From Spirogloea muscicola (taxonomy: Eukaryota), in contig WELB01000016.1 of NCBI GenBank assembly GCA_009602725.1, positions 635,084-699,083 of the forward strand: a DNA stretch of 64,000 nucleotides, in the 5' to 3' direction. This document shows positions 2,828-41,500 of this stretch, one piece after another. The translations under genes and the position numbers were made by a program. The notes beneath the pieces were generated by a model. It saw only the letters and a program-made list of their open reading frames with translations, had not been told where the DNA came from and did not search any database. Every line of letters starts with the position of its first letter. Position 1 is the first letter of the stretch.

Positions 2828-5271
2828 ATGCCGCCGCTGGTGGCGGCAGCGGCGGCGGCGGTGTCGGCGGCGGCGGCGCTGGCGCTCCTGCTGCTCTTCG
2901 CGGTNGGCTACAGGGTTTAGGTAGTAGGGTTTGAATTGCAAGCCCATAAGTCGCTTCTGCTCTCGTCGAGTCCGCATGCGCAGGTTCGGCATGGCGCGAG
3001 AGGCCCAACTCAGAAGCGCGCCCGGGAGCTCAGCCGCCTGGCGGCCAGGCTGCGGGCGGCGGCGACGGCGGCGCCCGGGACCCCTGGGACGATGCCGGCG
3101 GCGGCGGCGGCTCTGGCGAGCTGATACCCGGCGGCGAGGAGGAGATGTTCGCGCTCGGCCGGCGGCTGCGCGCGCGCTTCCCGGCGCTGCTCGGCGCTCC
3201 CTACCACCACAGCGCGTATGTGATCGCCGCCACGCAAGTACGCCCCACCTTTAACCACGATCTCGGCGAGCAATGGGGTTTGAACCTGTGTCTCAAATTG
3301 AGAATGTTACACCTTGACCAACTAAGGCTGAGAAGGGCCCCCTTATCATTGGCTTAGCTCCTGGAAGATGGTTGTGGGTACCCGGCGGTCAGTACCATGC
3401 CAGCGCGTGTTGCATGCGCAGGTTCCGCGGGCGTCGGCGAGCGCCGTGGCCTTCGGCCTGGGCCTCTTTGAGGGCAACGGCAGCCTCGGCGCGGATCACT
3501 TCCGGGCGTTTGCGGTCACCACCGACACGCTGGCCCACGACATCCACCTGCGCTTCCACGACAACTGTGCAGCGTACGCAGCGTCAAAGAAGGCGATGAA
3601 GGCCGAGGTGGCGAGGCTGCAGGCCCGTGCCTATGCAGATGTTGCTGCATCTGTCGCGAATCGCCATCCGTACCTCAGCCCTAGTGCCGCCGACGTCGCC
3701 TCCCTCTGGCTCCTGTGCAAACAGGTTCTCTGGCACCCACATGCTCTTTCCACAATCCTGCTTGTAGATCGTCAACGCTATCAAGCGCCAGTCACAGGGC
3801 TTCAGATTTAAGCAACTTCAGACAGAGTCAGGATAAGGGTTCAGCTATCTGTGCTTCAATGCCAAATGTCACCTGATATACTGCAACCACCTGCTGCACG
3901 GTGTGGTGGCTGTCCAGACTCTCACTTTTGCGGCGTGCAATGCCTCATTCGTGCTTGTGGCTCTGGGGATACCTCTGTCCAGGAGGCGGCGCTGCTCGAC
4001 CGGCAGGATAGGGCGTGCGCCCTATTCACTGCTAGCGAGGCCGCATTACTTGAGTGGGCAGATGACGTCGAGTTGCACCTTCTCAAGGGCTATGGCGCAG
4101 CCGTGAATTATCGCATGGGCGTAGCTCTGCTGCGTGACATGGTCAAGGCCATGGACGAAGCGGTCGCTGCAGACCACAGCGAGCGACAAGAGGCAGCCGC
4201 TGGCACGGATTGGCAACAGCGCGTGCGGCAACGAGCGAAGCTGCGGTTTGCACATGCTGAGACGCTGGTGCCGTTGACATGCCTCCTGGGCCTCTTCCTT
4301 GGTGGTCCTAACGGTCAGTGCTCTTGCATGAACGGTAATTGAAAGCTCCTGAACATACGCTTATCTTGAAGAATGAAGGTCTCTCCATGAAGATCGTGTT
4401 CTGCACTGTCGTGGTTGCTCATTTGCAAGAGGTGGAGAAAGTCAAGGAGAAGCTCCCGTTGCCAGAGCTCCCCTACCCGCCAGTCGTGCGGACGTGGCGT
4501 GGAGCCCAGGTGGCACCATTCGGCGGCAATACGGCTTTGATCCTGTACCGCTGCAAAGACTCACGCGACCAGGATGGACAGGAGGCATCCTACCTTGATG
4601 ATTCGATAAGGGCGCCTGGCGACGTGCAGGGTGCGACCACTGTGGCTGCCACTGACAGTCAGGAAGATCAGTGGAAGTACTTTGTCATGGCCCTTCACAA
4701 CGAGCAGCCCGCGGTTATGCCAGTAAATTACCCTTGCTCCCTTCCAAGCATTTAGGATTTCACTTTCGTCAATCATTACTCGGATGTATAATGTGCACTT
4801 GCTTTCCTCTGCAGAGCAGTTGCCTGCAAGTTCCAGTTTGTTGAGTAGCTCAGCTCTTCTGTGATGTATTGACAAACAGTTGTTGCCACCACAGGCCTGT
4901 GGTGGCACAATACTCTGCCCTTTCCAGGTATTTAAGGTAAGACCTGCCACTTTCGACTTACTGTAATTTCTAAGGTGTAAATGTTACCCATTTGTTAGTT
5001 GCAGTAATTTCCAAGTGAGATGACCACAACATTGTTCGGCGACTCGACTCTCCTCTAATAGCAATCTTCATGTGATTCGGTGCTGCAGGAGAAGGTTGCA
5101 GGCCCTCACTTGCTGCACAGCTTCGAGGATGTTTGCTCACTCAAGCCTCACTTAGAGGATAGGACCAGTGCTTGGAATCGTATATTAGCAGCTGTGGCCA
5201 CTACCTTCAAAACTTGGTGGTCACTAGTTTTTGATGACTGGAGGAAGACATTTCCAACTGCCGACCTTTAG
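2828..5271 (+). CDS. Multiple inositol polyphosphate phosphatase / histidine acid phosphatase (MINPP1-like), multi-exon, with a signal-peptide-like N-terminus and a gap at 2904
   Basis: Hydrophobic N-terminus from ATG 2828; RHGARGP catalytic motif (~2985); ATQVPRASASA; LRFHDNC; LEWADDVE...KGYG; LRFAHAETLVP; WRGAQVAPFGGN; LHNEQP; TAG ends at 5271. Confidence 0.88.
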
Positions 5272-17415: not shown

Positions 17416-18071
17416 AGGTCCACCTGAAGGTACAAAGAGCGCCCTGCCTCAGTGTGGACCTGGCTGGCTTTTACAGCCGGTCTTGTAATCTCATGCGGCT
17501 GCATAATTCATCTTATTCCATGAGGCCGTGGAGCTCCCAGCTCCTGACTTTTCCGACACCGTCCACTGTTCACTGGGCTAGTCACTCCGACCTGCGGCTG
17601 CTGAGGGGTTGCTGACCCTACATCTGCTGTGACCACTTGCATAGCTCTGTAGTCTTAGCGTCTTTCGGCCCTTTGAACCTCGTGGTTTACATGCGGCGCC
17701 CGACTCTCGGCCGCCGGCCCAGCATGCCGGCGGCCACGCAGCAGGCGAGCGCTTCGCCGGGGAGGCCGGCCAGGCGGGCCCAGCCGCGGGCTGAGCAAGA
17801 GGCCCCAGAGTTGCAACCGCCACGGAGCGCGAGCTTCCTGAGCTTCCTTCCTCGTCCAGAATCTTTCTGTTAGCAAGCTTCTGTCTCCTCTCATCCGTGG
17901 TCTGCAGAAAGGATAGTGCTAGGCATTAAATGCCTTATGCCTGCTGCTTTATGAGGTTGCTGACTATGGGCGTAGCTAAGCTAATCGCTGTCTCCTGACC
18001 ATTACTTCAATGAATCCCTGTATGGTAAAGCACGCTCACACAAACTTGTTGTGGGCAATCTTGTCCTCCAG

Positions 18072-18270
18072 CTGCAGGGCTCCTACCACGGCCACTTGAC
18101 CAGAAGGCGCGGACAGTGTCGGAGGTGCGCAAGAATGTGTGGCCTTTGATTAAGAGTGGACAGATTAAGCCAGTCATTGACTGCATCTTTCCTCTTGCAG
18201 AGGCTGCAAAAGCACATGAACAACTTGACTCCAGTGCTCACATAGGCAAAGTTGTCCTAGTAGTTGGATG
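18072..18270 (+). pseudogene. Orphan last exon of an NADPH:quinone oxidoreductase (PIG3/zeta-crystallin family)
   Basis: After the acceptor ctccag: AGLLPRPLDQKARTVSEVRKNVWPLIKSGQIKPVIDCIFPLAEAAKAHEQLDSSAHIGKVVL; no upstream exons recognised, and the frame runs on into a repeat. Confidence 0.7.
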
Positions 18271-18399
18271 GACAGAAGAGGGCGATGGCTGTGATTGGCC
18301 AGCCCAGAGAAAGAATGAACAAAGCTCGAAGGGGCCAGAAAAAGCTAGAGCACACTGCGACTCAATTGCCACTGGGTGCTTAACATCCCCTGTTGAGAA

Positions 18400-18950
18400 T
18401 TTAATGTTTATGCGTGCTCAGACTCATGCTTCGCACCGAACCTGCCATCTGGTATTCAGGCATCGATTAGCGACCTCCATGTGTTAATTCGTGCTTACTG
18501 AGCGGGTCAATGTGCAATGGGTGATGTACGTCAGTAGATGTGCTTGCCTTTGTACCTGGCATTTTTGGCCTTCGTTTTTGAGCAGCCCGCAGGTCAGAGA
18601 AAGTAGTCTCCGGGTAGCGGGGTCCCCTGTCTACAGCCAGAGGCTGCAGCCCAAACGCGACCAGCACGCAGACGCAACGCATATGCGATTGACCGCTGCA
18701 GCCTGCAGCGATACTGACAGGCGCATGCGATACAGGCGAGAGAGCCTGCCGCGTCGGCCTGCTCCGCTTGGTGACGTCGAGACACAGTGGTGCGCGCTAG
18801 CCGATGCAGGAGTTCGAGCCACCGAGCGCCGAACGCCCCGTGGACGTGGTTGGCAAGGGCGAACTGAGCTCTAACAGCGGGGGCGGTGGTGTGCATGGCC
18901 AGCCCACAAAGAATGGACAAGGTTCGAATGACCAGAAGGCGCCAAAGCGA
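18400..18950. mobile_element. Two truncated CRE-like 3' ends arranged tail-to-tail (+ strand 18400-18580; - strand 18585-18860) plus a tail unit
   Basis: The + copy has the ttactgagcgggtcaa UTR; the - copy encodes HVHGAFGARWLELLHRLAR...RMRLSVSLQ. Confidence 0.65.
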
Positions 18951-20349: not shown

Positions 20350-20397
20350 AGGGGTTTAGGGTTTAGGGCTTAGGGCTTGGGATTTAGGGTTTTGGGT
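20350..20397 (+). repeat. Degenerate plant-type telomeric (TTTAGGG) tract, interstitial
   Basis: tagggg tttaggg tttaggg cttaggg cttggga tttaggg tttttggg. Confidence 0.7.
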
Positions 20398-20609: not shown

Positions 20610-23600
20610 ATGGTTGCAGATGGCACCGTGCCACCAGCGCTGGCCACCGTCCAGGGCCATGGGGGCCTACTTGTCGTTGACAGCAAGCACTACCAGGTAA
20701 GGTAGTTTCTGCTCTGGCTTGTGACCCCGTGTCAGATTGATCCTCAACGGGTGAAGCACTTCAGCTTCTGTTTCAGAAAGATCGAGGTGTTGAAGTGGTT
20801 TAGATCTTAGTGTGCACTGTGCACTTGCCTGATAGAGACCTGTCTCAAGATGTGCAATCGTTTATTGATTTCTAAGCAACTCCAATATTAACAACAAGGT
20901 TTGTTTTCTGCTGTCACACGACGTTGCTCATCCAGATTCTATCACACAGCAGGAATTTTCTCGATGTAGTCAAGGTTGCTGCCAAAATCGACTCTGCCAG
21001 CCTGGTGGGCATGCCGCTGTTGGACCTCTTCAGCGAAGAGGTGTGCCAGCTTGACTGCAGATATTGCATGAGCCTCTTTATGACTGAAGACATTGTAATA
21101 TTAGGTGACATTCATTGCTGCAGAGCAGGAGGGCATAGTCTACAGGGAGCAAGATCTCCAAGTAGCACAAGGGAGCGGTTGGCCCCTTATTGACTGAGTG
21201 CAGCTTAATGAGCGTCCTAATTTTGACCTAATTGCAGGCTTATGCCAAGATGCAGCTAGCATCCGTGCGGGCAGACGACCGTTCTAGCTCATGCCGCATC
21301 GTTGCAGAAGGAGGTACATCAAAGAGAATGAATCACTGCCTGTGTGCTTCCTGCTGCGCTTGGCATGCACTCGGATATGTAGCCTCCCAATGGCTTGAGT
21401 TGTACTCATTGACGGGCACAGTTGGCATGCAAGTTTGCCTGTCTCCGCCTTCCTCATGAAACTCAGTGGGTCTAACAGCCACTAGCTGCGTCTTCATTGC
21501 AGAAAGCTCTTTCCTTGTCACTGTCAACCGAGCAGGCGGATATGTGTACCTGAGTTTTGAGGAAGACACTGAAGCAGGTCTGCTCTGACTACTACTCAGC
21601 TACAATCAGGTTCCAGAGGCTACTGCTGAGACCAGGCTGTCATGATGCCACGTCTATACGGCATGTACTTACTTGGAGCAAACGACGAAAGACATCCCTC
21701 CGTCTTTGACGGATCCTGAACCACTGCCCTTTTTACTTCTCATTTAGCATTTGTTTTGTCTATCTAACAGCAGGTAAGAAATCTTCAAGGAAGCACGACG
21801 GGCGCACCTTCTCCACTCAATTGCCGTTCCATCAACTGGCAAGGGTCGCCATCGACCACCTCCAAGCCGTACCTGCACGAGATGTAGTTAGTCTTTGTGC
21901 AGTTGCAGCCCAGGTACATGTGGCCAAGACCACAATATCAGCTATTAGAGCTCATTTTGCCAAAATGAGACCTTGCTGATTGGGTTCTTACGCAGGCCAG
22001 ATTGACATGACTCTTAAGATGCGTGCTTACCAACGTTGTCTGTCTGCGTGCTCATGGTTGCAGGAGCTCCGTAATATGGCAGGATATGACAGGGTTGTCA
22101 TTGGGCAGGTTGCTGAGATCGGGGACACTGCTGAGGTCTTGAGACCGGACCTCCCTCTCAGTTGCCAACTACAATGTCACCTGCAACTAAGAAGGCCTTC
22201 AATCTCTTGCAAATCACGAACCTGCAAGCACTTGCATCTGGAAGAACATGTCCAGCATATAGCACCTGGAGCAGTGCTCCCATAGGTTTGTACTGTGTGA
22301 GTGAGGAACGTTCAGAGGGTCCGACTAGACCACAGCCCAGGGATGGGCAGATTCTGCTCCTGTGCTGACTTGATAGAATTGCCTTCTCCAGGTCATTGCA
22401 GAGAGCTGCCTAAAATCACTCCCACCCTACAAAGGCTTGCACTTTCCAATGGCAGCCTTGCCCAAGGTTGTAACATCCTCCAGGCCATCTTTATCTAAAT
22501 CAATTATCCTCATGCATCTTGTCTACACATACGCTCCCAAGATCTCGTGTGACATATGGCAACAGTGAGTGAGCAGAATGTTTCTCACGGCTGCCATATT
22601 ATTAGGTGTGAATTTAGACTTACTCGACATGTGTTCTGATATTATGTTGTCACGTGCTCTCGTGTCATCCAGGACTGGGTGAATGGTCTAAGCAAAGCAG
22701 TACCAATGCGGCTCATCTACGGTGTCGGAGCTGCTCAGGTCCCACTAGCTGGGGAGAAGACTTTGTTGCAGTCCCTTTCCCTGGTCAACTCCCCTCTTGC
22801 AGGTAAGTTAGTGTCCGCTTAGTGACACGATTTGGGTTCCCATGTCAATACTGCAGGCTTTGCTCATGGTCCTTGTTGTTTGTGTCAATTGGCAGGAGTG
22901 GATGACAAGCAAGCCGAGGTCCTTGAGAAGCTAGGGGTCAAGTCTCTCCTTCTCATGCCCATTGAGATCCCCTCAAGAGGAATGCCAAAGCTGTGGGGCA
23001 TTGTTGTATGCCACCACTATCGATCACCGTGGCTCCTTCCCAACTCGCGGAGGGCCTCTTGCATCTTCCTGATTCAGGTACGTAGGTAGCCAAGTAGTCT
23101 GTGCCAGTCAATGACGTTTGCATCCCTGAAGTAAAGGTTTGATGTCATGAGTGCGAGTAAATAACTCCAACACTTGGCAGGTGAGACATGACTTGCGAGC
23201 ACGGTATCATCACTATCTGTCCGCTGCTGCCGTCGACGAGTGTGACAAGCATCTCTTTGGTCCCGCAACCTGCAGGCCCTTAGAGCGCACCTAGAGACAG
23301 CAGTGAAGGCTCAAGAAAGGGCTGCCGACCGCCAGATGCAAGCCATGCAGACCAGCATCTGCGACCACCTCACATACCAAGTGCCCACCTCGCTGGTAGT
23401 TGAGAAGCCTTCCATCATCGACCTCATCCCCTGTGAAGGAGTTGCACATGTCCAAGGGTTGAGCATCGTCAAAGACGGATGTTGCCCAACAGATGCCCTG
23501 GTAAAAGAACAGACCTCATTTGATTCTCATGATATTGACAATATTCCAAGCTGGTTCTTGATGTGTCTCGTGCCTGCAGTAGCAAAGGTTGCAGAATGTT

Positions 23601-26600
23601 ACTTATGAGAAGCTTGGCGTCAGTAGAGCCAGGACAGCTGTTACTTCTCTGTGATAGATCGTGATATATTAGTCATGATGTAGTCATGTTCTCGTGATTA
23701 GCATGCTAGCAAATACGACAACAGTCAACTGCGGATGCAAAGTGGCTGCTCTATCGTATAAGCACTTACTGTCCCATATTTTTATAGGGAAGTGCCCTTG
23801 TGTCCGTGGCTAATGACGAGCTTCACTGCATGCACTATGGATGTAGCCAATTCTGAATTGCCTCTGCTCTAACGTATACATGGACTAGGGGGTTCAAGTA
23901 TCAATTGAATCTACTCTTTATAGTGCATCCCAGGCCTTTTTGTGAGCTTTTTTCAACTGACAAGCGCAGATTCTAAAGCTGACAAGGTGGGTGGAGGAGA
24001 AGAAGATGATGGTCGATGGCCTCTACACCGTCTCCAGCTTGAAGGCTGCAGGCTTCCCAGAGGCAGACCAGCTCCTGCGAGACTCTTGTTTGTGCGGCCT
24101 GGCAGTTGTGGCAATCTCTGAAGACGACCTTGCGCTCTGGTTCCGCAGACGTGAGAACAGCCACTTGGTGCTAGCCGCGTGTTTCTCAGAAGCTGATGGG
24201 AAGCAGATTGTGCAGGAGCTTGCATGGGTACATATTGCGTAAACTAGGCTGCTCATGCTCTTGCTGTTTAACAGTGAGCTTAGTTGAGCTGAGCAGGAAG
24301 CTCCATTGGAGGTGTGGCAGGAATGGATGTTGTGAAGGACTGGGCATGGACACATCCAGCAGCCGCAGGTTCGCCGCTCATCCAAGCTGAGGCGTACCAG
24401 TCCTCAGAGGCGTCATCAGATGTCTGGACTGCAGCTGAGGTGGGTGGCTGCGGCTCAACTTGAGCCGTATGCTGTCTGAGTTGCTGCTACATGACACTGT
24501 GAAGGAACCGCTGCTACGTAACATTGTGAAGGAAGTCAGGGTCTATCAATGTCATGGTTGACTTGGAGCCACATTACTACATTGGTCTTGAAGTATTGCA
24601 TTTGGCTAACTTTCAGAAGCTGTAAGCCATGAGCCAATATGAGGTATAAGCCAAGCAAGTTTCAAAGTATGCCACAATATTTGATTGCAGAAGTTGGGAC
24701 TTAGCTAAGCAATAGTTGCTGAGATGCAACAATGTCTTATCTACTCTGTAGCTCTATCCAGAGTAGATACTTGACTAGCTCAGTCTGCATTTCTTGGGTG
24801 CTTAGGTGAATTGCCTCAAAGGTCTACGGAAGATGGCTGATGATGCTCTTAAGGGCAATAGTGAGCCCATCAAAACCATGATGCTGGTAAGGCTAGAGGT
24901 GGAAGAGCTTGCCCATACACAACTATGCTGACGCCCAGGGTGAGATGATTTGTAATATGATGGGCGTCTTTAGATGTCTGCTTGTAAGGTACGAGATAGG
25001 ATGTAATCCTTTACATGTCCTTGCACAGTGCTCCTGTTAATAGACATTTGGCTGTTGTGTTTGACCATCTTTGGTCTACCTGCTTAGATCTCAAATGCAC
25101 GTTGTCGGCACTTTTACTCTCATTCTGAAAGCAGCTGTACGTCGTGCTTCCACAGGTTCGACTGAACGAAGAGAGGCTGAAAGCTATGCAGGACTTGGCC
25201 ATCGTGGCAAGAGATCTGACGCACATGATGGAGATTGCCAAGACTCCAATCCTCAGCATTAACGAGCACATGGTCCTTGTAGAGTGGAACCAGAGGCTGG
25301 CGCAACTCACCGGCAAACCAAAAGTTAGTCTGCCATAGCTTTGTCTGTAAACCGGCCTTGCATCTCTAGAGACTTGTGACAACAAGTGGACTGTCAACAT
25401 TGCTTAGTAGCGCTTGGTTTACAACAAGCTGCTGCTCAATTTGCCCGCCAAGATAGATACACTCACAAGCCAACAGCATAGAGCTGATTCCAGCATTGAA
25501 GTATGCTGTCTTGCAACATGAATTTGGTTCTCAAGAGTCACTGTTGAGCTGTTCTGTGTGCAGGCTAGGGTGGTGGGATGCCATTTGGCCGATGTATTGG
25601 TACCGGACTGTGTAGAGTCTGTCATTGCAGTAGTAGAGAAAGTGCTGCAAGGAAACAACCAGGACCACTTGGAGATAAATCTGAAGAGGGTGCCAACCAA
25701 TGGTACCTTGCAGAAGGGTCTTGCTGGTGCTAGTGGCAAAGATACAAGCCTGTCTATGCTGGAGTTGCAGGAGGACCTGCTAATACTCATGGTTAACATG
25801 GTTCCTCAGTGGGACTCTGCGAACAAGGTCATTGGTGTCAGCATCATTGGCCAGGTTACCATCTGCCTCCACCTTACTCCTCCTCTGTATAAGGGGATGA
25901 TGGGGTGACGAGCTCCTTAGCCATCCCATCTTTGGCCTTAATTAGTATCCCTGCACCTTCACATTATTGCATGTCTCGGATATCTGAGAAGGCCTGTTCT
26001 CACCCGGCAGGATGTCACTGAGCAAAAGCTGATGATGAGAAAGGCAGCTCTTCTTGATGGAGGAGTCAAAGGCGGTGAGGGAGAAGCAGAGAAACTTTCA
26101 TACAAGAAGATCATTGACAAGGCCACCTTGCCGATCTGGGGAGTCGACCGAGAGGGCGTCATCGTCGAGTGGAACAGTGCCATGGCAAAGACGTCTGGTA
26201 AGACTGGATGTTTTGTAGATAGTGTCCTGCATTTGTGCATACAGAAGAGGCAGAGCACCATCAGCATGTTGGTCATAGGTTCTCTATGAGGTGGTCTGGT
26301 ACACCGTTATATATGCTGGCACTCTGCTAATGTGTTGCCAGGTACATGGTATGTACCTGGCACTGAGCTCTAGGGCAGGGTGCCCTTCACTTGCTGCGAT
26401 GCAGCTCGGGTGCATGCTCTACCAAGCTCATGTATTCATCAGCTTCTTACAGCTCCTTATATGGCACAGGCATATCAAAGGAGCAGGCCCTTGGGAAGCA
26501 GCTTATGGGGGATCTTGTGGGGTCCGAGAAGGTCCTGATGGTACCAGACAAGGAGATGCTGCTGTCCTTGGATTTTGCCTTGCAGCGGGCTTTGGCCGGG

Positions 26601-29600
26601 CACGAGACACCTCTCACTCACCTCAAGTTTGTCAACGATGAGGGTCGGCACATCGAGAGCCTGGTTAACATGACCACACGGCGGGACGAAGCAGGGAATG
26701 CCGTCGGTGTCCTATGCTTCATGCAGGACGTGAGCATGCGCAAGGCGGTGGAGAAGGCCAACGCTGTGAGGCTGGCTGCAGAGGCGGCTGCCGATGCCAA
26801 GTCGCGTCACCTTGCGTTCCTCTGCCACGAGATCCGCAACCCGCTGAACGGCATCTTGGGCAATATCACCTTCATGGAGGATACGACGCTCACGGAGGAG
26901 CAGCGGGAGCTCGTGGAGACGACAGCCACCTGCGGTCACCAGCTGGTCAGCTCTCCAGAACCCCAAATTTACTCATGCTAATTGGGCCTACGTTTGACCA
27001 TGTTACTGAATGTCCTCAAAGATTCATGTGGTCGCTTTGGAGATTTACTTATCCTTATGATGGTCAACAATGTCATACCAGCGTCATGTCTTATTTTAAT
27101 CAGGTCTACAGGTCAGTTCAAGCAGCAGAAAGAGTTGTATATTTGCAACTAAGCTGCAGACTTGTATGGGAAGGTGATTTTTGCTTGTGCAGAGGAAGAT
27201 TGTGGAGGATGTGCTGGACATAAGTAAGATCGAGGAGGGCAAGACACAGCTTGAGTTGAAAGAGCTCAAGCTACAGAAGATTCTGAATGCTATTATTAGC
27301 CAGGTACGTGTAGTACATGAATTGTATGAGGAATTCCTTTGCTTATCCTTGCATTGACTCGCATATGCAGCAAAACCTGCACCTAGAAGGGACCAAGGAT
27401 CACAAAGTGATGCAGCAGTTTGCACTTCCTTGGCAGCTGTCACTGGCTGTGGGCTCACCTATGTGGCGTTGTGCAGGTTGCGATTGCAGCGACCAAGAAG
27501 GGCTTGCAGCTCTTCAGCACAGTGGAGCCGAGGTGCCTGCATTGGCGGCCTCTCGGGGACGCCCCGAGGCTGCAGCAGGTGCTGTCCAACTTTGCGTGGA
27601 ACACGATCAAGTTCACGCACACTGGGTATGTGGACATCCGCATCGCCATGCAGGAGCCAAGCGCCCCCGATAGCCGCGGCCGGACGTTTGCCAAGTTCTT
27701 GTTCAAGGTCACAGACAGCGGGGAGGGCATCTCGGAGCCGTTGAGGCGACGGCTGTTTGAGGAGTACTCGACGGGCAACAAGACGAGCACGAGCCAGTAC
27801 GGCGGCACCGGCCTCGGCCTGAGCATTGTGAAGCAGCTGGCGTACCTGATGGGCGGCGAGGTCAAGTGCCAGAGCCAGCCGGGCAAGGGCTCCACGTTCT
27901 CGCTGGACGTGGACCTGCAGGTGCTGCCGGCCGGCACCAAGGAGCCCTCGCCCTTCTCGCACCTGCTGGACGAGCCGACGGCCAGCGACTCGCTCGAGAA
28001 CAGCAGCATTGAGGACGAGGAGTTTGCATTCCCACTGCCGAGCAAGGCGGATAATGAGCAGGGGGCAGGCGAGCCGCCGTCCATGCCCAGTGACGCGCCC
28101 AGCTTGCAAGCCGGCAAAGCGCAGCCGGCTAGCGAGGAGGACGAGGACAGTGGACCTGACCAGATAAGGACGGCGCAGCAGCAAGAACCCGCAGCCGTGT
28201 CCCCAAGTCCAGCTTTGGCCGGCCTTCTGGAAGCCAAGCAGCACCTCGGCCGCCGCCGGTCCTTGAATGCCATGATGCTCGACGTCCTCCTGGGCCCCGA
28301 GGCCGGGAGGCCGGAGCCGGCGGCGCACCACCGCGCTCCGCCGCCGTTCTTCAGCAAGCAGCCGGCCAGCGTGGTGCCAGTGCTGGGCGCGTGGCAGCAG
28401 GCCGGCCGCCTCGGCAGCTCGCCGCCCCAGGCAGTGGACCAGCCACCACCTGCGAGCTCGGCCGACAACCGCCAGGTGCCGCCCCAGCCGCCGGCTGCTG
28501 CGCAGCCAGCCGAGCGGCCTGCGGAGCCGCCGATGTCTCATCACCAGCCGAGGCCGCTCGACGCCGAACCCCCGCCGTCACCTTGGCGCAAGCTTGAGCT
28601 GGCGGCTAAGCCTCAGCCTGCGAGAGCCATGGCACAGAATGTCGGCGCAAGCGTCCCCCCCCCGGAGCTGGACCAGGTGGTGCAGCGGCTGGCCCTGGCG
28701 TACGGCGACTCGTGGAGCGTCCGGGTGGTGCGTGAGATTGTGAAGCCAGGCGAGGCGGCAGTGCTCGCAGAGATCACGGTCGGCGCTGCAGCCCGCCAGC
28801 AGTGGGGGACGGCCAAGGAGGCGGCGGCGGCGGCAGCGGCGTCGTCGGGCCAGGGCGGCGGCGACAGCGGCGCTGCACTCCTGCCGGCGGCGACGGCGCG
28901 GGCCCTGGCGAACGCTGCGCTGCTGTTCCTCCCCTCTGGCGGGCTGCTGGCTGCCGAGGCCGTGCACCAGCCAGCTGCAGTGTCGTCTCACTGGAGATCG
29001 GTCGCAGCGCAGGAGATGGCCGAGTCCGGGGCAGCAGCCGTGCAGGGCCGCGAAGCGCAAGCTTCGTCGACGCACGTGTCTCCTGTCAGACGGGCATTCG
29101 GTCGCTCTGGCTCTTCGCCGGCGCTCGCCGTGTACAACATTCCCGACTTGGCGCAGCCCAGTACTCCGATTGCAAGGCTGAGTCCTCGCGCTCCAGTGGA
29201 GAGGACGGCATCGCAGCAAGGTGCTAGTGAGCGGGAGCCCGCCAGCTCCCGGCAGCCGCTGGACGTAGGCGCTGTGGTGGGTGCGTCTCTGCATCACTCA
29301 GGGCCGGCGCACGCGGCGTTGCTGACAGCGGCGGCAGCCAAGACGAGCTCTGGCGGTCAGCTTGCCGCCGACGTTGGCCTGAGGCCGCTAGCAGCGAAGC
29401 TCAGCACACAGGGTCCCATGCTGGCCACAGCAGACGCCGTGCTGGACGCTCCTCCGATGACGTCTGGGCTCGGGCAACTAGCGCCGCCGCTGGCAAGGTC
29501 GAGCTCTGGAGGGTCCTCCGTCTTCTTCCCGGCACCGCGTCTGCCGTCGTCGTCCCCGCCACCTCAGAGGCCCCAGCTCATCCGCAAGCTGCCATACGAT

Positions 29601-31064
29601 ATGTCCGTCCTGCCGTCTGTTCCTCCTTCATCCTGCGCGTCGCCTAGGCACGCTGCTGGCACCAATGCTGGAAGTGAGTCAGGGATTAGCAGCGCGTCGA
29701 CCATTGCACAGTCCCCTGGTTCAGGTCCTTCCGGAACACGTGGCTTGAAGGTACGATAGCCTTCCGCTTTGCCTTCTCAATGTTTTGTTGTAGATTGACA
29801 TCATTCATGGCATGCCCTGGCATGTGTCAGCATTTTGTTCAACCGTGGCACCTTTGCCCTCCTATACTGGTAAATTCTCTCCATTTAAAGAGACGGGTCA
29901 ATACTGTTATTGATTGAGTGTTAGCTTGCCTATGCCAGGCAGTCAATGTTGGCGCGTGTAGTGAAGTGGTCATGTAGACGAGGATTTGGACATGCCTCAT
30001 GATAGCTTTGCACGTGACTTTGTGATCCTATGCAGGCCTTGGTCATTGACGATGAACCTGTCAATGTCATGGTTGTCAAGCGGGCACTGTACAAGTACAA
30101 TCTTGACCCACCTCAACAGGGCAATGGCTCTTAAGTAGGGTAGATGCTTTTGGCTTTGAGATAGCTGCTTCTTTAGAAATACTGGGCTGCTGCAGTGCAT
30201 AGTCCTCGATTTATGACATACTCTTGCTGGTTGTTGAAGTCTGTGTGACAGTTGCAATTAGTGCACTGAGAAGTCGTTGGCTGTGTTCTTCTTACAGAGC
30301 CAACTTTGAGGTGGAGACAGGGGCAGATGGGACTGACGTGATCTGGAGGGTTATTGAGCTAGGAGAGAAGTTTGACGCTCTCCTCCTTGATGAGAGGTGA
30401 ATACTGATGTACTTAGTGTGAATGCTTCTCTCGCTATAGACTCTGTGTCCAGGCCACCTGGGCCGCACCGTGACTGTCTTCAGTCAGCAACATGTGTGTT
30501 CAAACGTATCTCATATGAAGCAAAGATTTGCCACGTTGTAGTGACGTTTCCTGCCAACTGTGAAGGTTGAAAGTCATGAATGGCTCTGAAGCTTGCCAGC
30601 TGGTTCGACGACACGAAGTTGATTGCAACCTGCCAGAGGTGCCCATCATTGGCATCTCCGCAAATGTGGAGGGGGCTGACCTAGTAATGTCATCAACTCA
30701 GCCCGACAACTATGGGGGTCGTGCATTTGGCTGATGTTATGAGCATGGCGCCAAGATATGTCACGGTCTCATGAGGAAATTACTCAATGTCAAGCTTGTA
30801 CTTGCTTGGGACAAGAAGGCCCTGCAAATGGCTTTCTGCCTCTTCTTGTGCTGACTATGGCATTGTCACTTGCAGAAAAAGTACGCCATGTCGGGTTACT
30901 CGGCTGTCATGGGGAAGCCAATCAATGTGCGGACAGCTGGCGAACGGCTTCGCAAATACTTGATGACATACAAATCGCCCTCACCTGAAAGACGAGCTGA
31001 ACTGAAGCAAGGAGACATTTTGAAGGCTAAGAAACAATTGGATGGTTTTGTTGTGTTCGTATAG
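20610..31064 (+). CDS. Phytochrome-related hybrid histidine kinase (PAS2-GAF-PHY-PAS-PAS-HisKA-HATPase-long linker-REC) lacking chromophore-binding residues; 24 coding exons modelled
   Basis: Phase-consistent GT-AG exons: 20610-20696, 20936-21040, 21238-21313, 21503-21577, 21774-21913, 22064-22135, 22392-22466, 22673-22802, 22896-23077, 23276-23500, 23970-24150, 24321-24439, 24806-24886, 25156-25323, 25564-25854, 26011-26197, 26470-26945, 27193-27303, 27477-29750, 30036-30094, 30298-30396, 30566-30683, 30876-31064 (23), plus a possible upstream exon at 19860-19964. Motifs: VQGHGGLLVVD, AGYDRV, KLWGIVVCHH, LWFRR, EWN (twice), FLCHEIRNPLNGILG, LSNFAWNTIKFT, DSGEGI, GGTGLGL; receiver IDDE/LLDE/ISAN/GKP. 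Confidence 0.88.
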
Positions 31065-38541: not shown

Positions 38542-41500
38542 GGGGGAAAATTTCGTGTGTTTGAAACATGCGAAGGCCAAATGGCCAAGTACAAAGGCAA
38601 GCACATCTTAAGACCTACATAAACTACAGTAGATTGACCCGCTCAGTAACCACGGGTCAAAACATAAAGGTCGCCACCCGAGCCTGAATACTAGATGGCA
38701 GATACGAAGCCCTTCTGCCACCAACTAGAGCTCGCCCAGCTTTCTGGTGCAAAGAATTAGCCTGAGCACGCTGCAAACAGGCCAAAACTCGTCGTCGCAA
38801 GAACAAACAGATATGCAGCTGGCAAGTCCATCTCAGCCGGGAACACATCTGCATGTCGTGTGTAGCCTAGGTTGGCTATATGCTATGCCTATGAAGGAGA
38901 GTAAGGAAACGAGGACCTGAGCAGCCAAAGATGTCGATTGCCGCTGGCAGGAGCTGATCACATTGGGGGTAATCGGAGTAGTGCTGCAACTTTCTTTGTT
39001 CAGCACTGCCCACTGCGTGGCCAGCGATGTGTGTCGATGCTGGACCTTTATAGGCCTCCGTAACCACAACATCGACCAAGGCCCGTGGTACTCCACCATG
39101 TTGCACGCCCACAATGTTAAGTGTGCGGCGATGATGACGTCCCTGGGCATCCGTGGTGATAGGCATGATGTTTTGTTCACTTCCACGACCGCACGGTACC
39201 CGGCGTCGCGCATCAAACCTGCCAGGGCATCACGGAGGAGGTTGTGGATGCCCACCACTTCTGGTCTGGTGGGGCATCGCAGCATGTGAGTGGCGAGCTC
39301 AGCATCCTCTGCACGGAAGCCGCACTCACACTGGCGCACCCCAATCAGGCAGTTAGGTGGGAGGCCGAGGAAGAGTTGAAGCAACGCCCGAAAGGCATCG
39401 GAGCTGATGCTGAAGGCGCTGGCCACGGCGTGTGAGGTGATCCAGTCTGTGGCTCCAGGTGTGGCGAGGGAAGTAAGTCTTGCCAGGCTCATTAAATTGT
39501 TGTGAATCTCTGGCAGCCTCCTCAAGCTTCTGCGGCGCTCATCTTCCACTGCTGTAACCAGTCTGGATTGTGCCCCTCTATCCGAAGCTTGGGCGAGGGT
39601 CGAGAATGGCGTGAGTAGGGGTTGTATAAAGGGAAAAAGAGCTGATTGCCAAGTCATGGATGCTCCTCAGATCCGCTTGGAAGGGGAAGGAGCTTTCCTC
39701 CACATTTCGTACGGGATTGTGGAGGCAAGGGAAGCGCATGGGAAGCATAGAGGCGATTTGGTTCCAGCAGGCCAGCAAGGCTGCTTGCGCCGTCTGCTCC
39801 AACGACCGGCAGCCGAGGCCGCCCATGCGAGTGGGAAGGGAAGCCTGGAGGGAAGATGAAGCGGAGGGGAAAGAGGAAGATTGTAGAAGGGATGCCAGGG
39901 ACTGCAGCAGGGAGTTGTCGAATTCCTTGTAGAGCTCGCCCACCATGCCCATTGGGGCGACTGTCCGTTGCAGGTAGCATGCCCCTTGGCTGATGCAGCG
40001 GGTGAGAATGGCCAATGCCAGCTGTGTGTCCCCAAGAAGGGAAAGGGAAGGGAGGGGGTACGAGGTGTATTTGGAGGCGTTCCCGCAAGTCCACCGCCAC
40101 GTGAGCTGGTGTGCCGAGGGGGACCTTGAGAATGGCCAGCCCATTGGCAGGGGTCCGGCAGCCGTGGGGGAGCTGAAGGTTGGCGGGGAGACGGAGTGGG
40201 GATCATGCCACGCTCTTCGACGGACAAACCCGCAGGCCCATCAGGTCCAGTTCACAAACGAGCAAGGGGTAAGCCGCCATGACTTCAGCTGGAGGTCCAA
40301 TGATGTGTGTATCATCGGCGTAGGAGGGGAAGAGGAGGTCTGGGTGTTGCCTCTGGGTGCACCGTATAGCCCGACAATGTGCCAAGGCAAACAGGATTGG
40401 GCTAAGGGGATCCCCCTGGCGTGTGCCAGAAGATGACCACGGCATCTTCCACGACTCTCCGGCTTGCCACAGCAGCCGCCCTGGGCGGCCATAGGCCATG
40501 AGGAAAAAGGGTATAAGTGAAGGGAAGTGGTTGCGCAGCTCCTCCATGATGACGCTGCGCTCCACTGTGTTGAAGGCGTTACTGATATCCAGCCCAAGGA
40601 CCATCGTTGAAGGGTCCACGTCGAGAGCTGCGCGGATGCCGTGGACGAGGGCCTCCGCCCCGCAGGACATGCCAGCACCAATTGGTGGGGTAATAGGTGG
40701 CTGGTCAGTTGGGGTTTCAGCTCGCTGCACACGGCCTTTGATGCCAGCCGCATGATAACCTCCGTCATCGCAATGGGTCTCATACCGCCTGTCGACTTCG
40801 CAAGGGCCAGCAGGTGGCTGGAATTGAAGCGTCGGCAATGCGTGGTGGAATGGCAGCCCTGGCGATGTGTCGGCAGGTGGACAGGAACAGGGAGAAGCTC
40901 CTCTCATCCCCATCAAGGAAAAGGTCCTGTAGGTGCTCAAAGAGCCATCCAGAAGGGCCTCCAGACACCATCCGGGGGGCTTTGGTCAGGGCCACACGGA
41001 GCGCTTCTGCCGATAGGTCAAGAGGACTGGGGAGCTCGCCAGCCCAGGGCTCGAGGGGGTGTTGTGGAGGGGGGTTGGAGCTGTCGCAAGATAGCCTCCG
41101 TGGCGTCATTGGTATTAGCCAGGGTTCAGGGCAAAGGGCCTGAGCGGCCCAGGAAAGTTCTCCTGCCCTGCCAAAGCGTCTTACGAACGCTTAATTGCCA
41201 GCTGTGGACTGTTGAGAGCCCACTCTCTGATCCATTGCGCGCTCGCCGCTGTGAGAGCGCGACCCGAGCAGCTGCTGGACGCTGCTGAGCCAAATCCTCC
41301 CATTTTCCACTTGTAAGTGCAGCCAGGCTGTCCTGGAAAGTCTTGCGGCCACTGACGCCGAAGGAGGGAAGATAGCCAAGAACAAGCTTGGGAAAAAGCA
41401 TGTACAACGCCCAGGCCGCCTCGTCCATAGAGTCCGCTTCGATGCGTGCGAGGTAAGGCATAGAAACCTTGGTGCACTCACGACGTGCCCATCTGAGAAT

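What the first reader, a model, noticed from the sequence alone, without database searches (positions are those of the whole stretch)
20610..31064. 'Blind' phytochrome: intact phytochrome scaffold and two-component output, but the bilin pocket is dismantled
Seen in sequence: the spliced protein aligns domain by domain with streptophyte phytochrome (PAS2-GAF-PHY-PAS-PAS-kinase), yet each chromophore hallmark checked is replaced. STLRAPHGCHAQYMANMG becomes SPLAGVDDKQAEVLEKLG (attachment Cys to Lys at 22907-22909, next His to Gln, Tyr to Val). HYPATDIPQ becomes HFPMAALPK (DIP Asp to Ala at 22455). DRVMVY becomes DRVVIG. The PHY-tongue PRxSF motif is absent (exon 24321-24439), and no bacteriophytochrome-type Cys occurs between ATG 20610 and the PAS2 domain. 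In contrast, the phospho-accepting His (LCHEIRNP), the N/G1/G2 boxes and a receiver with DD/D/S/K are all intact. Established: canonical land-plant phytochromes keep the Cys and lack this His and the REC domain, whereas prasinophyte phytochromes and some non-canonical charophyte (PHYX) forms carry REC. Inference: 23 exons stay in frame, so this looks like a maintained, light-independent sensor kinase (ligand, temperature or redox sensing) or a heterodimer partner that gives true phytochromes a phosphorelay output.
Basis: partly seen in the sequence, partly recalled or inferred. Interest (0 to 1): 0.9.

Follow-up and report, generated by a model that had tools for sequence, protein, structure and literature searches.

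The report
Blind algal phytochrome kinase, PHYX1 type
This spliced algal gene encodes a phytochrome that has lost its pigment-binding residues but kept its kinase motifs; it likely belongs to the already described PHYX1 group, and it also carries a small unannotated domain predicted to fold like Rad52 and to self-associate.

Summary
Window 20610-31064 is a 23-exon gene (all introns GT..AG) identical to Spirogloea muscicola model SM000016S01922 (1840 aa, PAS-GAF-PHY-PAS-PAS-HisKA-HATPase-REC). The attachment Cys, His, Tyr, DIP Asp and tongue motif are replaced; His852 and Asp1737 are intact. Public contigs show 14 of 22 introns spliced, and the folded domains are under purifying selection. The idea is not new: Li et al. 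2015 (PMC4525182) named a charophyte clade, PHYX1, that lacks all bilin cysteines, keeps the His and sometimes carries REC. My trees put this gene, with Mesotaenium, Closterium and one transcript-derived relative, in one Cys-less clade at that position. I could not compare it with the published PHYX1 sequences. What I add: the sensor evolves fast while the kinase evolves slowly, the mirror image of plant phytochromes; clade-specific Trp and Cys residues appear in the old pocket region; and a ~80-residue domain sits in the kinase-receiver linker. That domain is shared with prasinophyte phytochromes and a Cys-bearing paralog, folds like the Rad52 core (Z 9.8) and is predicted to oligomerise. Function is untested.

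The parts
20610..31064 (+). Whole gene, 23 exons, 1840 aa (SM000016S01922)
20610..21812 (+). N-terminal PAS (PAS_2), exons 1-5; no N-terminal extension and no BphP-type Cys; less conserved between the three copies (85-86%)
21813..23308 (+). GAF domain, exons 5-10, with remodelled bilin pocket
22103..22105 (+). G176 in place of the conserved D-ring Tyr (DRVVIG)
22407..22409 (+). C192, a Cys kept in all 6 Cys-less rows and in 1 of 35 others
22455..22457 (+). A208 in place of the DIP Asp
22676..22678 (+). W213, clade-specific Trp five residues after the DIP-Asp column (0 of 35 others); possible pocket filler (inferred)
22907..22912 (+). K259-Q260 in place of the attachment Cys-His
23309..24880 (+). 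PHY domain, exons 10-13; tongue exon 24321-24439 has WAWT for WGG/WAG (W460 at 24347-24349) and no PRxSF; tongue residues 461-476 pLDDT under 50
25156..26748 (+). PAS-PAS repeat, exons 14-17
26749..27926 (+). HisKA (His852 at 26826-26828) and HATPase_c with N, G1, G2 boxes
27927..29750 (+). About 600-residue Pro/Ala/Ser-rich linker in exon 19, poorly conserved except one island
28665..28940 (+). Linker island, aa 1325-1416: alpha-beta-beta-beta-alpha domain, Rad52-core/dsRBD-like fold, predicted head-to-tail oligomer
30036..31064 (+). Receiver domain, exons 20-23; D1737 at 30389-30391, S1770 at 30657-30659, K1792 at 30915-30917

Best explanation
A spliced, conserved, phytochrome-derived hybrid histidine kinase without its bilin-binding residues, likely a member of the known PHYX1 clade and likely a light-independent phosphorelay kinase. 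Shown: domain order, loss of the pocket residues, intact catalytic motifs, splicing, purifying selection, and a Cys-less clade at the base of streptophyte phytochromes. Inferred: it binds no bilin; it autophosphorylates His852 and passes the phosphate to Asp1737 and on to a phosphotransfer protein. Inferred with less support: the GAF-PHY module is kept as a dimer scaffold whose pocket is partly filled (W213, W460) and reads a smaller non-bilin input. Predicted: the Rad52-fold linker domain, inherited from prasinophyte-type phytochromes, joins kinase dimers into larger assemblies.
For: Exact 23-exon model; 14 of 22 introns skipped in X1 contigs. Of 34 GAF-PHY positions invariant in at least 33 of 35 Cys-bearing rows, the four Cys-less genera keep 16 (largely scaffold Gly/Pro/Trp/Arg), lose 12 (including Tyr176, Arg254, Cys259, His260, Tyr263 and tongue Gly/Phe) and are mixed at 6. 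AF2 model of residues 1-603 has pLDDT 87 and matches phyB best (E 2.6e-39). The three Spirogloea copies differ at 16 of 387 GAF+PHY residues against 89-91 of 516 in the linker (p about 1e-10); among the 40 of 167 contig differences shown, 12 synonymous to 1 non-synonymous in folded domains against 9 to 16 in the linker (p 0.0015). GAF-PHY tree: Cys-less clade 100/100, first branch of streptophyte phytochromes 97/94, as PHYX1 is drawn in Li et al. Supp. Fig. 2e. Path to Nephroselmis phytochrome: sensor 3.9-4.5 against 2.3-2.9 for canonical rows; kinase 1.6-1.7 against 3.4-4.4. Linker domain trimer: score 0.53, best of 3 controls 0.24; mark reached by 21 of 30 solved pairs and 0 of 23 single chains (microbes), 17 of 29 and 0 of 30 in eukaryotes; runs agree in at least 91% of contacts, partner pLDDT at least 77.
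Against: No published PHYX1 sequence (KT072038-44) was in hand, so membership rests on traits and tree position. The Cys-less stem is long (1.23), and its exact place is unsettled: sister to all other streptophyte rows in GAF-PHY but sister to the Cys+His paralogs in PAS-PAS-kinase (99/98); the AU test does not reject the latter for GAF-PHY (p 0.31). Kinase activity, ligand and lack of bilin binding are untested. Arg224 and His294, which I recall as bilin contacts, are kept. The N-terminal PAS is no better conserved than the linker (p 0.51). The AF2 alignment held mostly canonical phytochromes, which may pull the model towards them. The trimer job is unlike the calibration (three copies), only 1 of 7 eukaryotic pairs without an older solved relative reached the mark, and Rad52 rings are solved, so the pass may be from memory.
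Confidence: 0.6

Rival explanations
1. Output partner of a sighted paralog: the blind kinase co-assembles, through the shared Rad52-fold domain or the kinase helices, with the Cys-bearing PHYX2-like protein, which has no receiver, and so supplies the receiver for a light signal.
For: The Spirogloea Cys+His paralog P0305 (second half) ends in the same domain (E 3e-7 with a profile built without it) and shows no receiver after it. The two groups are sisters in the output-module tree (99/98). In Li et al. Supp. Fig. 2e, 5 of 7 PHYX1 species also have PHYX2. The domain is predicted to pack head to tail (score 0.53, best control 0.24).
Against: No hetero-complex was modelled or shown. Co-occurrence and the shared domain also follow from common descent, since prasinophyte phytochromes carry the domain. 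P0305 is a fused gene model, and the other paralog P0159 lacks the domain.
Confidence: 0.2
2. Still a pigment sensor, using a non-covalent tetrapyrrole or a new attachment site such as C192.
For: Li et al. leave open 'a non-conserved binding site'. C192 is kept in 6 of 6 Cys-less rows; Arg224 and His294 are kept.
Against: Asp208, His260, Tyr176, Tyr263, Arg254 and the tongue motif, invariant in all 35 Cys-bearing rows, are gone together. By recalled Cph1 geometry the C192 position lies away from the A-ring (not measured here).
Confidence: 0.1
3. A separate Cys-less lineage, convergent with but distinct from published PHYX1.
For: No direct comparison with KT072038-44; Closterium (Desmidiales) has a member (P0158), an order where Li et al. 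list none.
Against: Every trait given for PHYX1 is met, the host class fits, and an HMMER search of 1.84 billion representatives showed only one Cys-less PAS-PAS-kinase clade among the best 150 hits.
Confidence: 0.07
4. Decaying pseudogene or wrong splice model; true transcripts restore Cys and DIP.
For: Introns 7 and 8 are not among the joints shown. An SHGCH string lies in intron 7 at 22589.
Against: Three intact copies, orthologs in three other algae with the same losses including a Trinity-assembled protein (P0068) that reads through the same SPLAGV-x-x-x-Q segment, and purifying selection. The intronic string lies before exon 8, out of order, and lacks the rest of the motif; 4 such G/S-C-H strings occur in 4.6 kb.
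Confidence: 0.03

Closest known systems
Charophyte PHYX1 (Li et al. 2015, PMC4525182)
   Same: Zygnematophycean host; PAS-GAF-PHY-PAS-PAS-kinase; no bilin Cys; conserved His; REC; placed outside canonical PHY1/2.
   Different: No difference shown. Not in the passages read: Spirogloea and Closterium members, the residue-level pocket loss, and the Rad52-fold linker domain.
Charophyte PHYX2-like paralogs (Spirogloea P0159, P0305)
   Same: His retained, PAS-PAS repeat, sister output module, same linker domain in P0305.
   Different: Keep Cys, DIP and the tongue motif; no receiver seen. The label PHYX2 is my inference from traits and position.
Prasinophyte phytochromes (Tetraselmis astigmatica P0187, Nephroselmis P0178)
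   Same: Same full architecture in P0187, including His, REC and the linker domain.
   Different: Keep all chromophore residues; P0178 shows neither REC nor the linker domain in the record held.
Canonical plant phytochromes (phyA/phyB/phyC)
   Same: Best sequence and fold matches in the PDB.
   Different: Keep the sensor and lost His, REC and the linker domain: the mirror image.
Rad52/Mgm101/Sak core and dsRBD fold
   Same: Alpha-beta-beta-beta-alpha fold; Rad52 residues 67-165, Z 9.8, rmsd 2.3-2.6 over 84-85 residues; head-to-tail packing predicted.
   Different: 14% identity, no Pfam or PDB sequence match, only the core is present, and it is not basic (7 K+R, 8 D+E), so nucleic-acid binding is doubtful.

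Membership tests
Charophyte PHYX1 | Lacks the conserved bilin cysteines in PAS-GAF | tested here: met
   GAF Cys column is Lys; no Cys before residue 83. The paper defining CysA-D was not read, so the other two sites were not located by name.
Charophyte PHYX1 | Conserved phospho-accepting His | tested here: met
   His852 in LCHEIRNP
Charophyte PHYX1 | PAS-GAF-PHY-PAS-PAS-kinase, REC in some | tested here: met
Charophyte PHYX1 | Streptophyte branch outside canonical PHY1/2, separate from the Cys-bearing His clade | tested here: met
   the exact sister group differs between modules
Charophyte PHYX1 | Groups with the published members KT072038-KT072044 | not testable with these tools
   Accessions read in the supplement; no record under these names came back from the protein searches or look-ups
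Charophyte PHYX2 | Retains the bilin Cys (implied by Li et al., who single out PHYX1 as lacking it) | tested here: not met
Canonical plant phytochrome | GAF Cys present; kinase His and REC absent | tested here: not met
Active hybrid histidine kinase | H, N, G1, G2 boxes and REC DD/D/S-T/K | tested here: met
Active hybrid histidine kinase | Autophosphorylation and His-to-Asp transfer | not testable with these tools
   needs a bench assay
Rad52/Rad22 family (linker domain) | Rad52 core fold | tested here: met
   VIA-align Z 9.8, above dsRBD at 8.2; Foldseek best E 1.1e-3
Rad52/Rad22 family (linker domain) | Sequence profile match | tested here: inconclusive
   0 of 8 members match a Rad52 Pfam model at E up to 1; no PDB sequence match at E up to 10
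Rad52/Rad22 family (linker domain) | ssDNA binding and annealing | not testable with these tools
   Charge is neutral; not filed as a member

The most novel reading that the evidence does not exclude
Green-algal hybrid phytochromes carry an overlooked Rad52-fold oligomerisation domain between kinase and receiver. In zygnematophytes it couples a blind kinase-receiver subunit (PHYX1) to a sighted receiver-less subunit (PHYX2): a photoreceptor split between two paralogs. Land-plant phytochromes lost the domain together with the His and the receiver.
Probability: 0.18. Interest if true: 0.8.

Novelty: new member of a known kind. Interest (0 to 1): 0.42.

Why it matters
PHYX1 was flagged in 2015 as possibly bilin-free, and I found no functional study in the library searched. 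This full-length, spliced, three-copy gene from the sister group of land plants makes it testable. It shows the opposite fate to plant phytochromes: kinase kept, sensor rebuilt. If the linker domain is a real oligomerisation module, it adds a missing part to the ancestral green phytochrome and suggests how blind and sighted paralogs could work together.

Tried and rejected
No whole genome is held for the window, so paralogs came from protein databases only. The run search listed one holder, not on record as RNA; its contigs skip GT..AG introns, which I take as splicing. Introns 1-3, 7, 8, 12, 15 and 17 remain unseen in transcripts. A profile search at 296-1110 residues returned only canonical and bacterial phytochromes (86 hits). 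A metagenome scan with the sensor alignment found 596 pattern matches and no relative; the linker-domain alignment was too varied for pattern scans, so the domain's range outside the 322 proteins held is unknown. The ESM Atlas gave canonical phytochrome clusters for the sensor and no usable hit for the linker domain. Pfam YopE (E 0.0016, 19 bits, cut-off 25), GHMP_kinases_C and Gp80 matches to the linker domain are below cut-off and at odds with the fold; rejected. The intronic SHGCH string was rejected as chance. The all-domain tree is the quick tree only. Earlier scan findings: none by words or sequence. Supplements of PMC11096116 do not name PHYX1 or these gene ids; those of PMC10505561 are picture PDFs and could not be read.
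Full report
Observation. A homology search with exon 17 returned a protein identical to the window's product: P0001, EukProt model SM000016S01922, 1840 aa, with two near-identical copies P0002 and P0003; P0002 is labelled Spirogloea muscicola. A script mapped P0001 exactly onto 20610-31064 in 23 exons, all introns GT..AG. Pfam confirms PAS_2-GAF-PHY-PAS-PAS-HisKA-HATPase_c-REC.

Expression and constraint. One public run (X1, RNA by guess) has contigs that skip 14 of the 22 introns; 12 further joint rows were hidden, so introns 7 and 8 around the Cys site are not seen directly. A Trinity-assembled ortholog, P0068, reads through the same Cys-less segment. The three copies are 94% (GAF), 98% (PHY) and 97-99% (kinase) identical against 81-85% in the linker. 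Of the 40 contig differences shown (of 167), folded domains have 12 synonymous and 1 non-synonymous, the linker 9 and 16, the island 1 and 1. The N-terminal PAS (85-86%) is no more conserved than the linker. This is a maintained gene, not a pseudogene.

Relatives. Cys-less orthologs with His and REC occur in Mesen1 ME000212S03050 (P0004; Mesotaenium endlicherianum by my recall of the label), Closterium sp. NIES-53 (P0158), P0068, and fragments P0005, P0209 and P0210. In a 41-row alignment of eukaryote-type phytochromes (bacterial hits left out), all 35 Cys-bearing rows have Tyr176, Asp208, Arg254, Cys259, His260 and Tyr263; the 6 Cys-less rows have none, bar one Asp in poorly aligned P0004. 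Of 34 near-invariant GAF-PHY positions, 16 are kept, 12 lost and 6 mixed. The clade also fixes new residues: C192, W213, P222, Q233, W460-T461 and others. So the sensor was rebuilt under constraint, not merely eroded. That W213 and W460 fill the pocket is my inference from recalled phytochrome geometry. An AF2 model of residues 1-603 (59-row alignment, mostly canonical) has pLDDT 87 with a disordered tongue (461-476) and matches phyB best.

Trees. GAF-PHY, 41 rows: the Cys-less clade (100/100, stem 1.23) is the first branch of streptophyte phytochromes (97/94), followed by Spirogloea Cys+His paralogs and then canonical forms (80/59). PAS-PAS-kinase, 24 of 41 rows (rows lacking the module and near duplicates dropped): Cys-less plus Cys+His paralogs 99/98. 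The AU test does not reject that union on GAF-PHY (p 0.31), and the all-domain quick tree of 22 rows gives it 93. With 18 matched rows, the path to Nephroselmis phytochrome is 3.9-4.5 in the sensor for Cys-less rows against 2.3-2.9 for canonical rows, and 1.6-1.7 against 3.4-4.4 in the kinase.

What is known. Li et al. [quoted passage not shown] Wang et al. 2019 (PMC7027972, passages) draw PHYX1/PHYX2 as sister to canonical phytochromes. All stated traits are met here. The published sequences were not retrieved, so membership is inferred (about 0.9). Passages of PMC13730384 and its preprint, PMC9915684, PMC13167755, PMC6324907 and PMC8707292 add nothing on PHYX1 function. Searches for later work found no functional study. 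Subscription papers, including the reviews by Rockwell and Lagarias (one asked for and not held) and the Spirogloea genome paper, were not seen and may say more.

An unannotated domain. The 600-residue kinase-receiver linker has one conserved island, aa 1325-1416 (28665-28940). A profile built from four Cys-less rows finds it in 13 of 322 proteins held: the six Cys-less proteins, Tetraselmis astigmatica phytochrome (E 2e-15), four other prasinophyte-type records, P0010, and the Spirogloea Cys+His paralog P0305 (E 3e-7); no canonical phytochrome has it. Pfam and PDB sequence searches give nothing above cut-off. AF2 folds it at pLDDT 85.5 as alpha-beta-beta-beta-alpha. The best structural matches are human Rad52 residues 67-165 (Z 9.8, rmsd 2.3-2.6, 84-85 aligned), Mgm101 (8.6) and dsRBDs (up to 8.2) among 48,161 chains; Foldseek ranks Rad52 first but only at E 1.1e-3. 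It is not basic. Three copies were predicted to pack head to tail, strand 3 of one copy on strand 1 of the next, with the invariant Trp-Gly at the interface: score 0.53, best of 3 controls 0.24; the mark was reached by 21 of 30 solved pairs and 0 of 23 single chains in microbes, 17 of 29 and 0 of 30 in eukaryotes but only 1 of 7 without an older solved relative; runs agree in at least 91% of contacts, pLDDT at least 77. Rad52 rings are solved, so this may be from memory. Two searches for such a domain in algal phytochromes gave 2 papers (listing only, one mention of Rad52 each) and 0 papers.

Mechanism. Most likely a light-independent hybrid kinase: the rebuilt GAF-PHY keeps the dimer scaffold and reads a non-bilin input, His852 phosphorylates Asp1737, and the linker domain clusters kinase dimers (0.6). 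Rivals: receiver-bearing partner of the sighted paralog (0.2), non-canonical pigment binding (0.1), a separate Cys-less lineage (0.07), pseudogene or wrong model (0.03).

Verdict. Interest 0.42, carried by the untested function and the Rad52-fold linker domain.

Noticed in passing
protein P0305 (SM000048S16582, not in the window): A 2466-aa model that appears to fuse two tandem Cys- and His-bearing (PHYX2-like) phytochrome genes; the second half ends in the Rad52-fold domain and shows no receiver.
   Followed up: partly
protein P0159 (SM000072S21193): Cys-bearing paralog with His but a drifted H-box (HEISSP) and a longer kinase branch; may be losing kinase activity.
   Followed up: no
proteins P0158, P0209 (Closterium): Cys-less members in Desmidiales, an order for which Li et al. 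list no PHYX1.
   Followed up: partly
protein P0010: An unnamed JGI histidine kinase fragment carries the same linker domain before a receiver-like segment; origin unclear.
   Followed up: no
window 20351-20396: Degenerate TTTAGGG-like repeats about 215-260 bases upstream of the ATG.
   Followed up: no
window 22589-22597: A G-C-H string (SHGCH) in intron 7, out of order for the chromophore motif; judged chance.
   Followed up: yes
window 40206-40985 (-): Reverse transcriptase (RVT_1) match, E 1.6e-9; probably a retroelement piece.
   Followed up: no
window 3812-4339 (+) and 18029-18484 (+): Exons matching His_Phos_2 and ADH_zinc_N_2; ordinary neighbours (3 of 29 long frames scanned had a match).
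   Followed up: no
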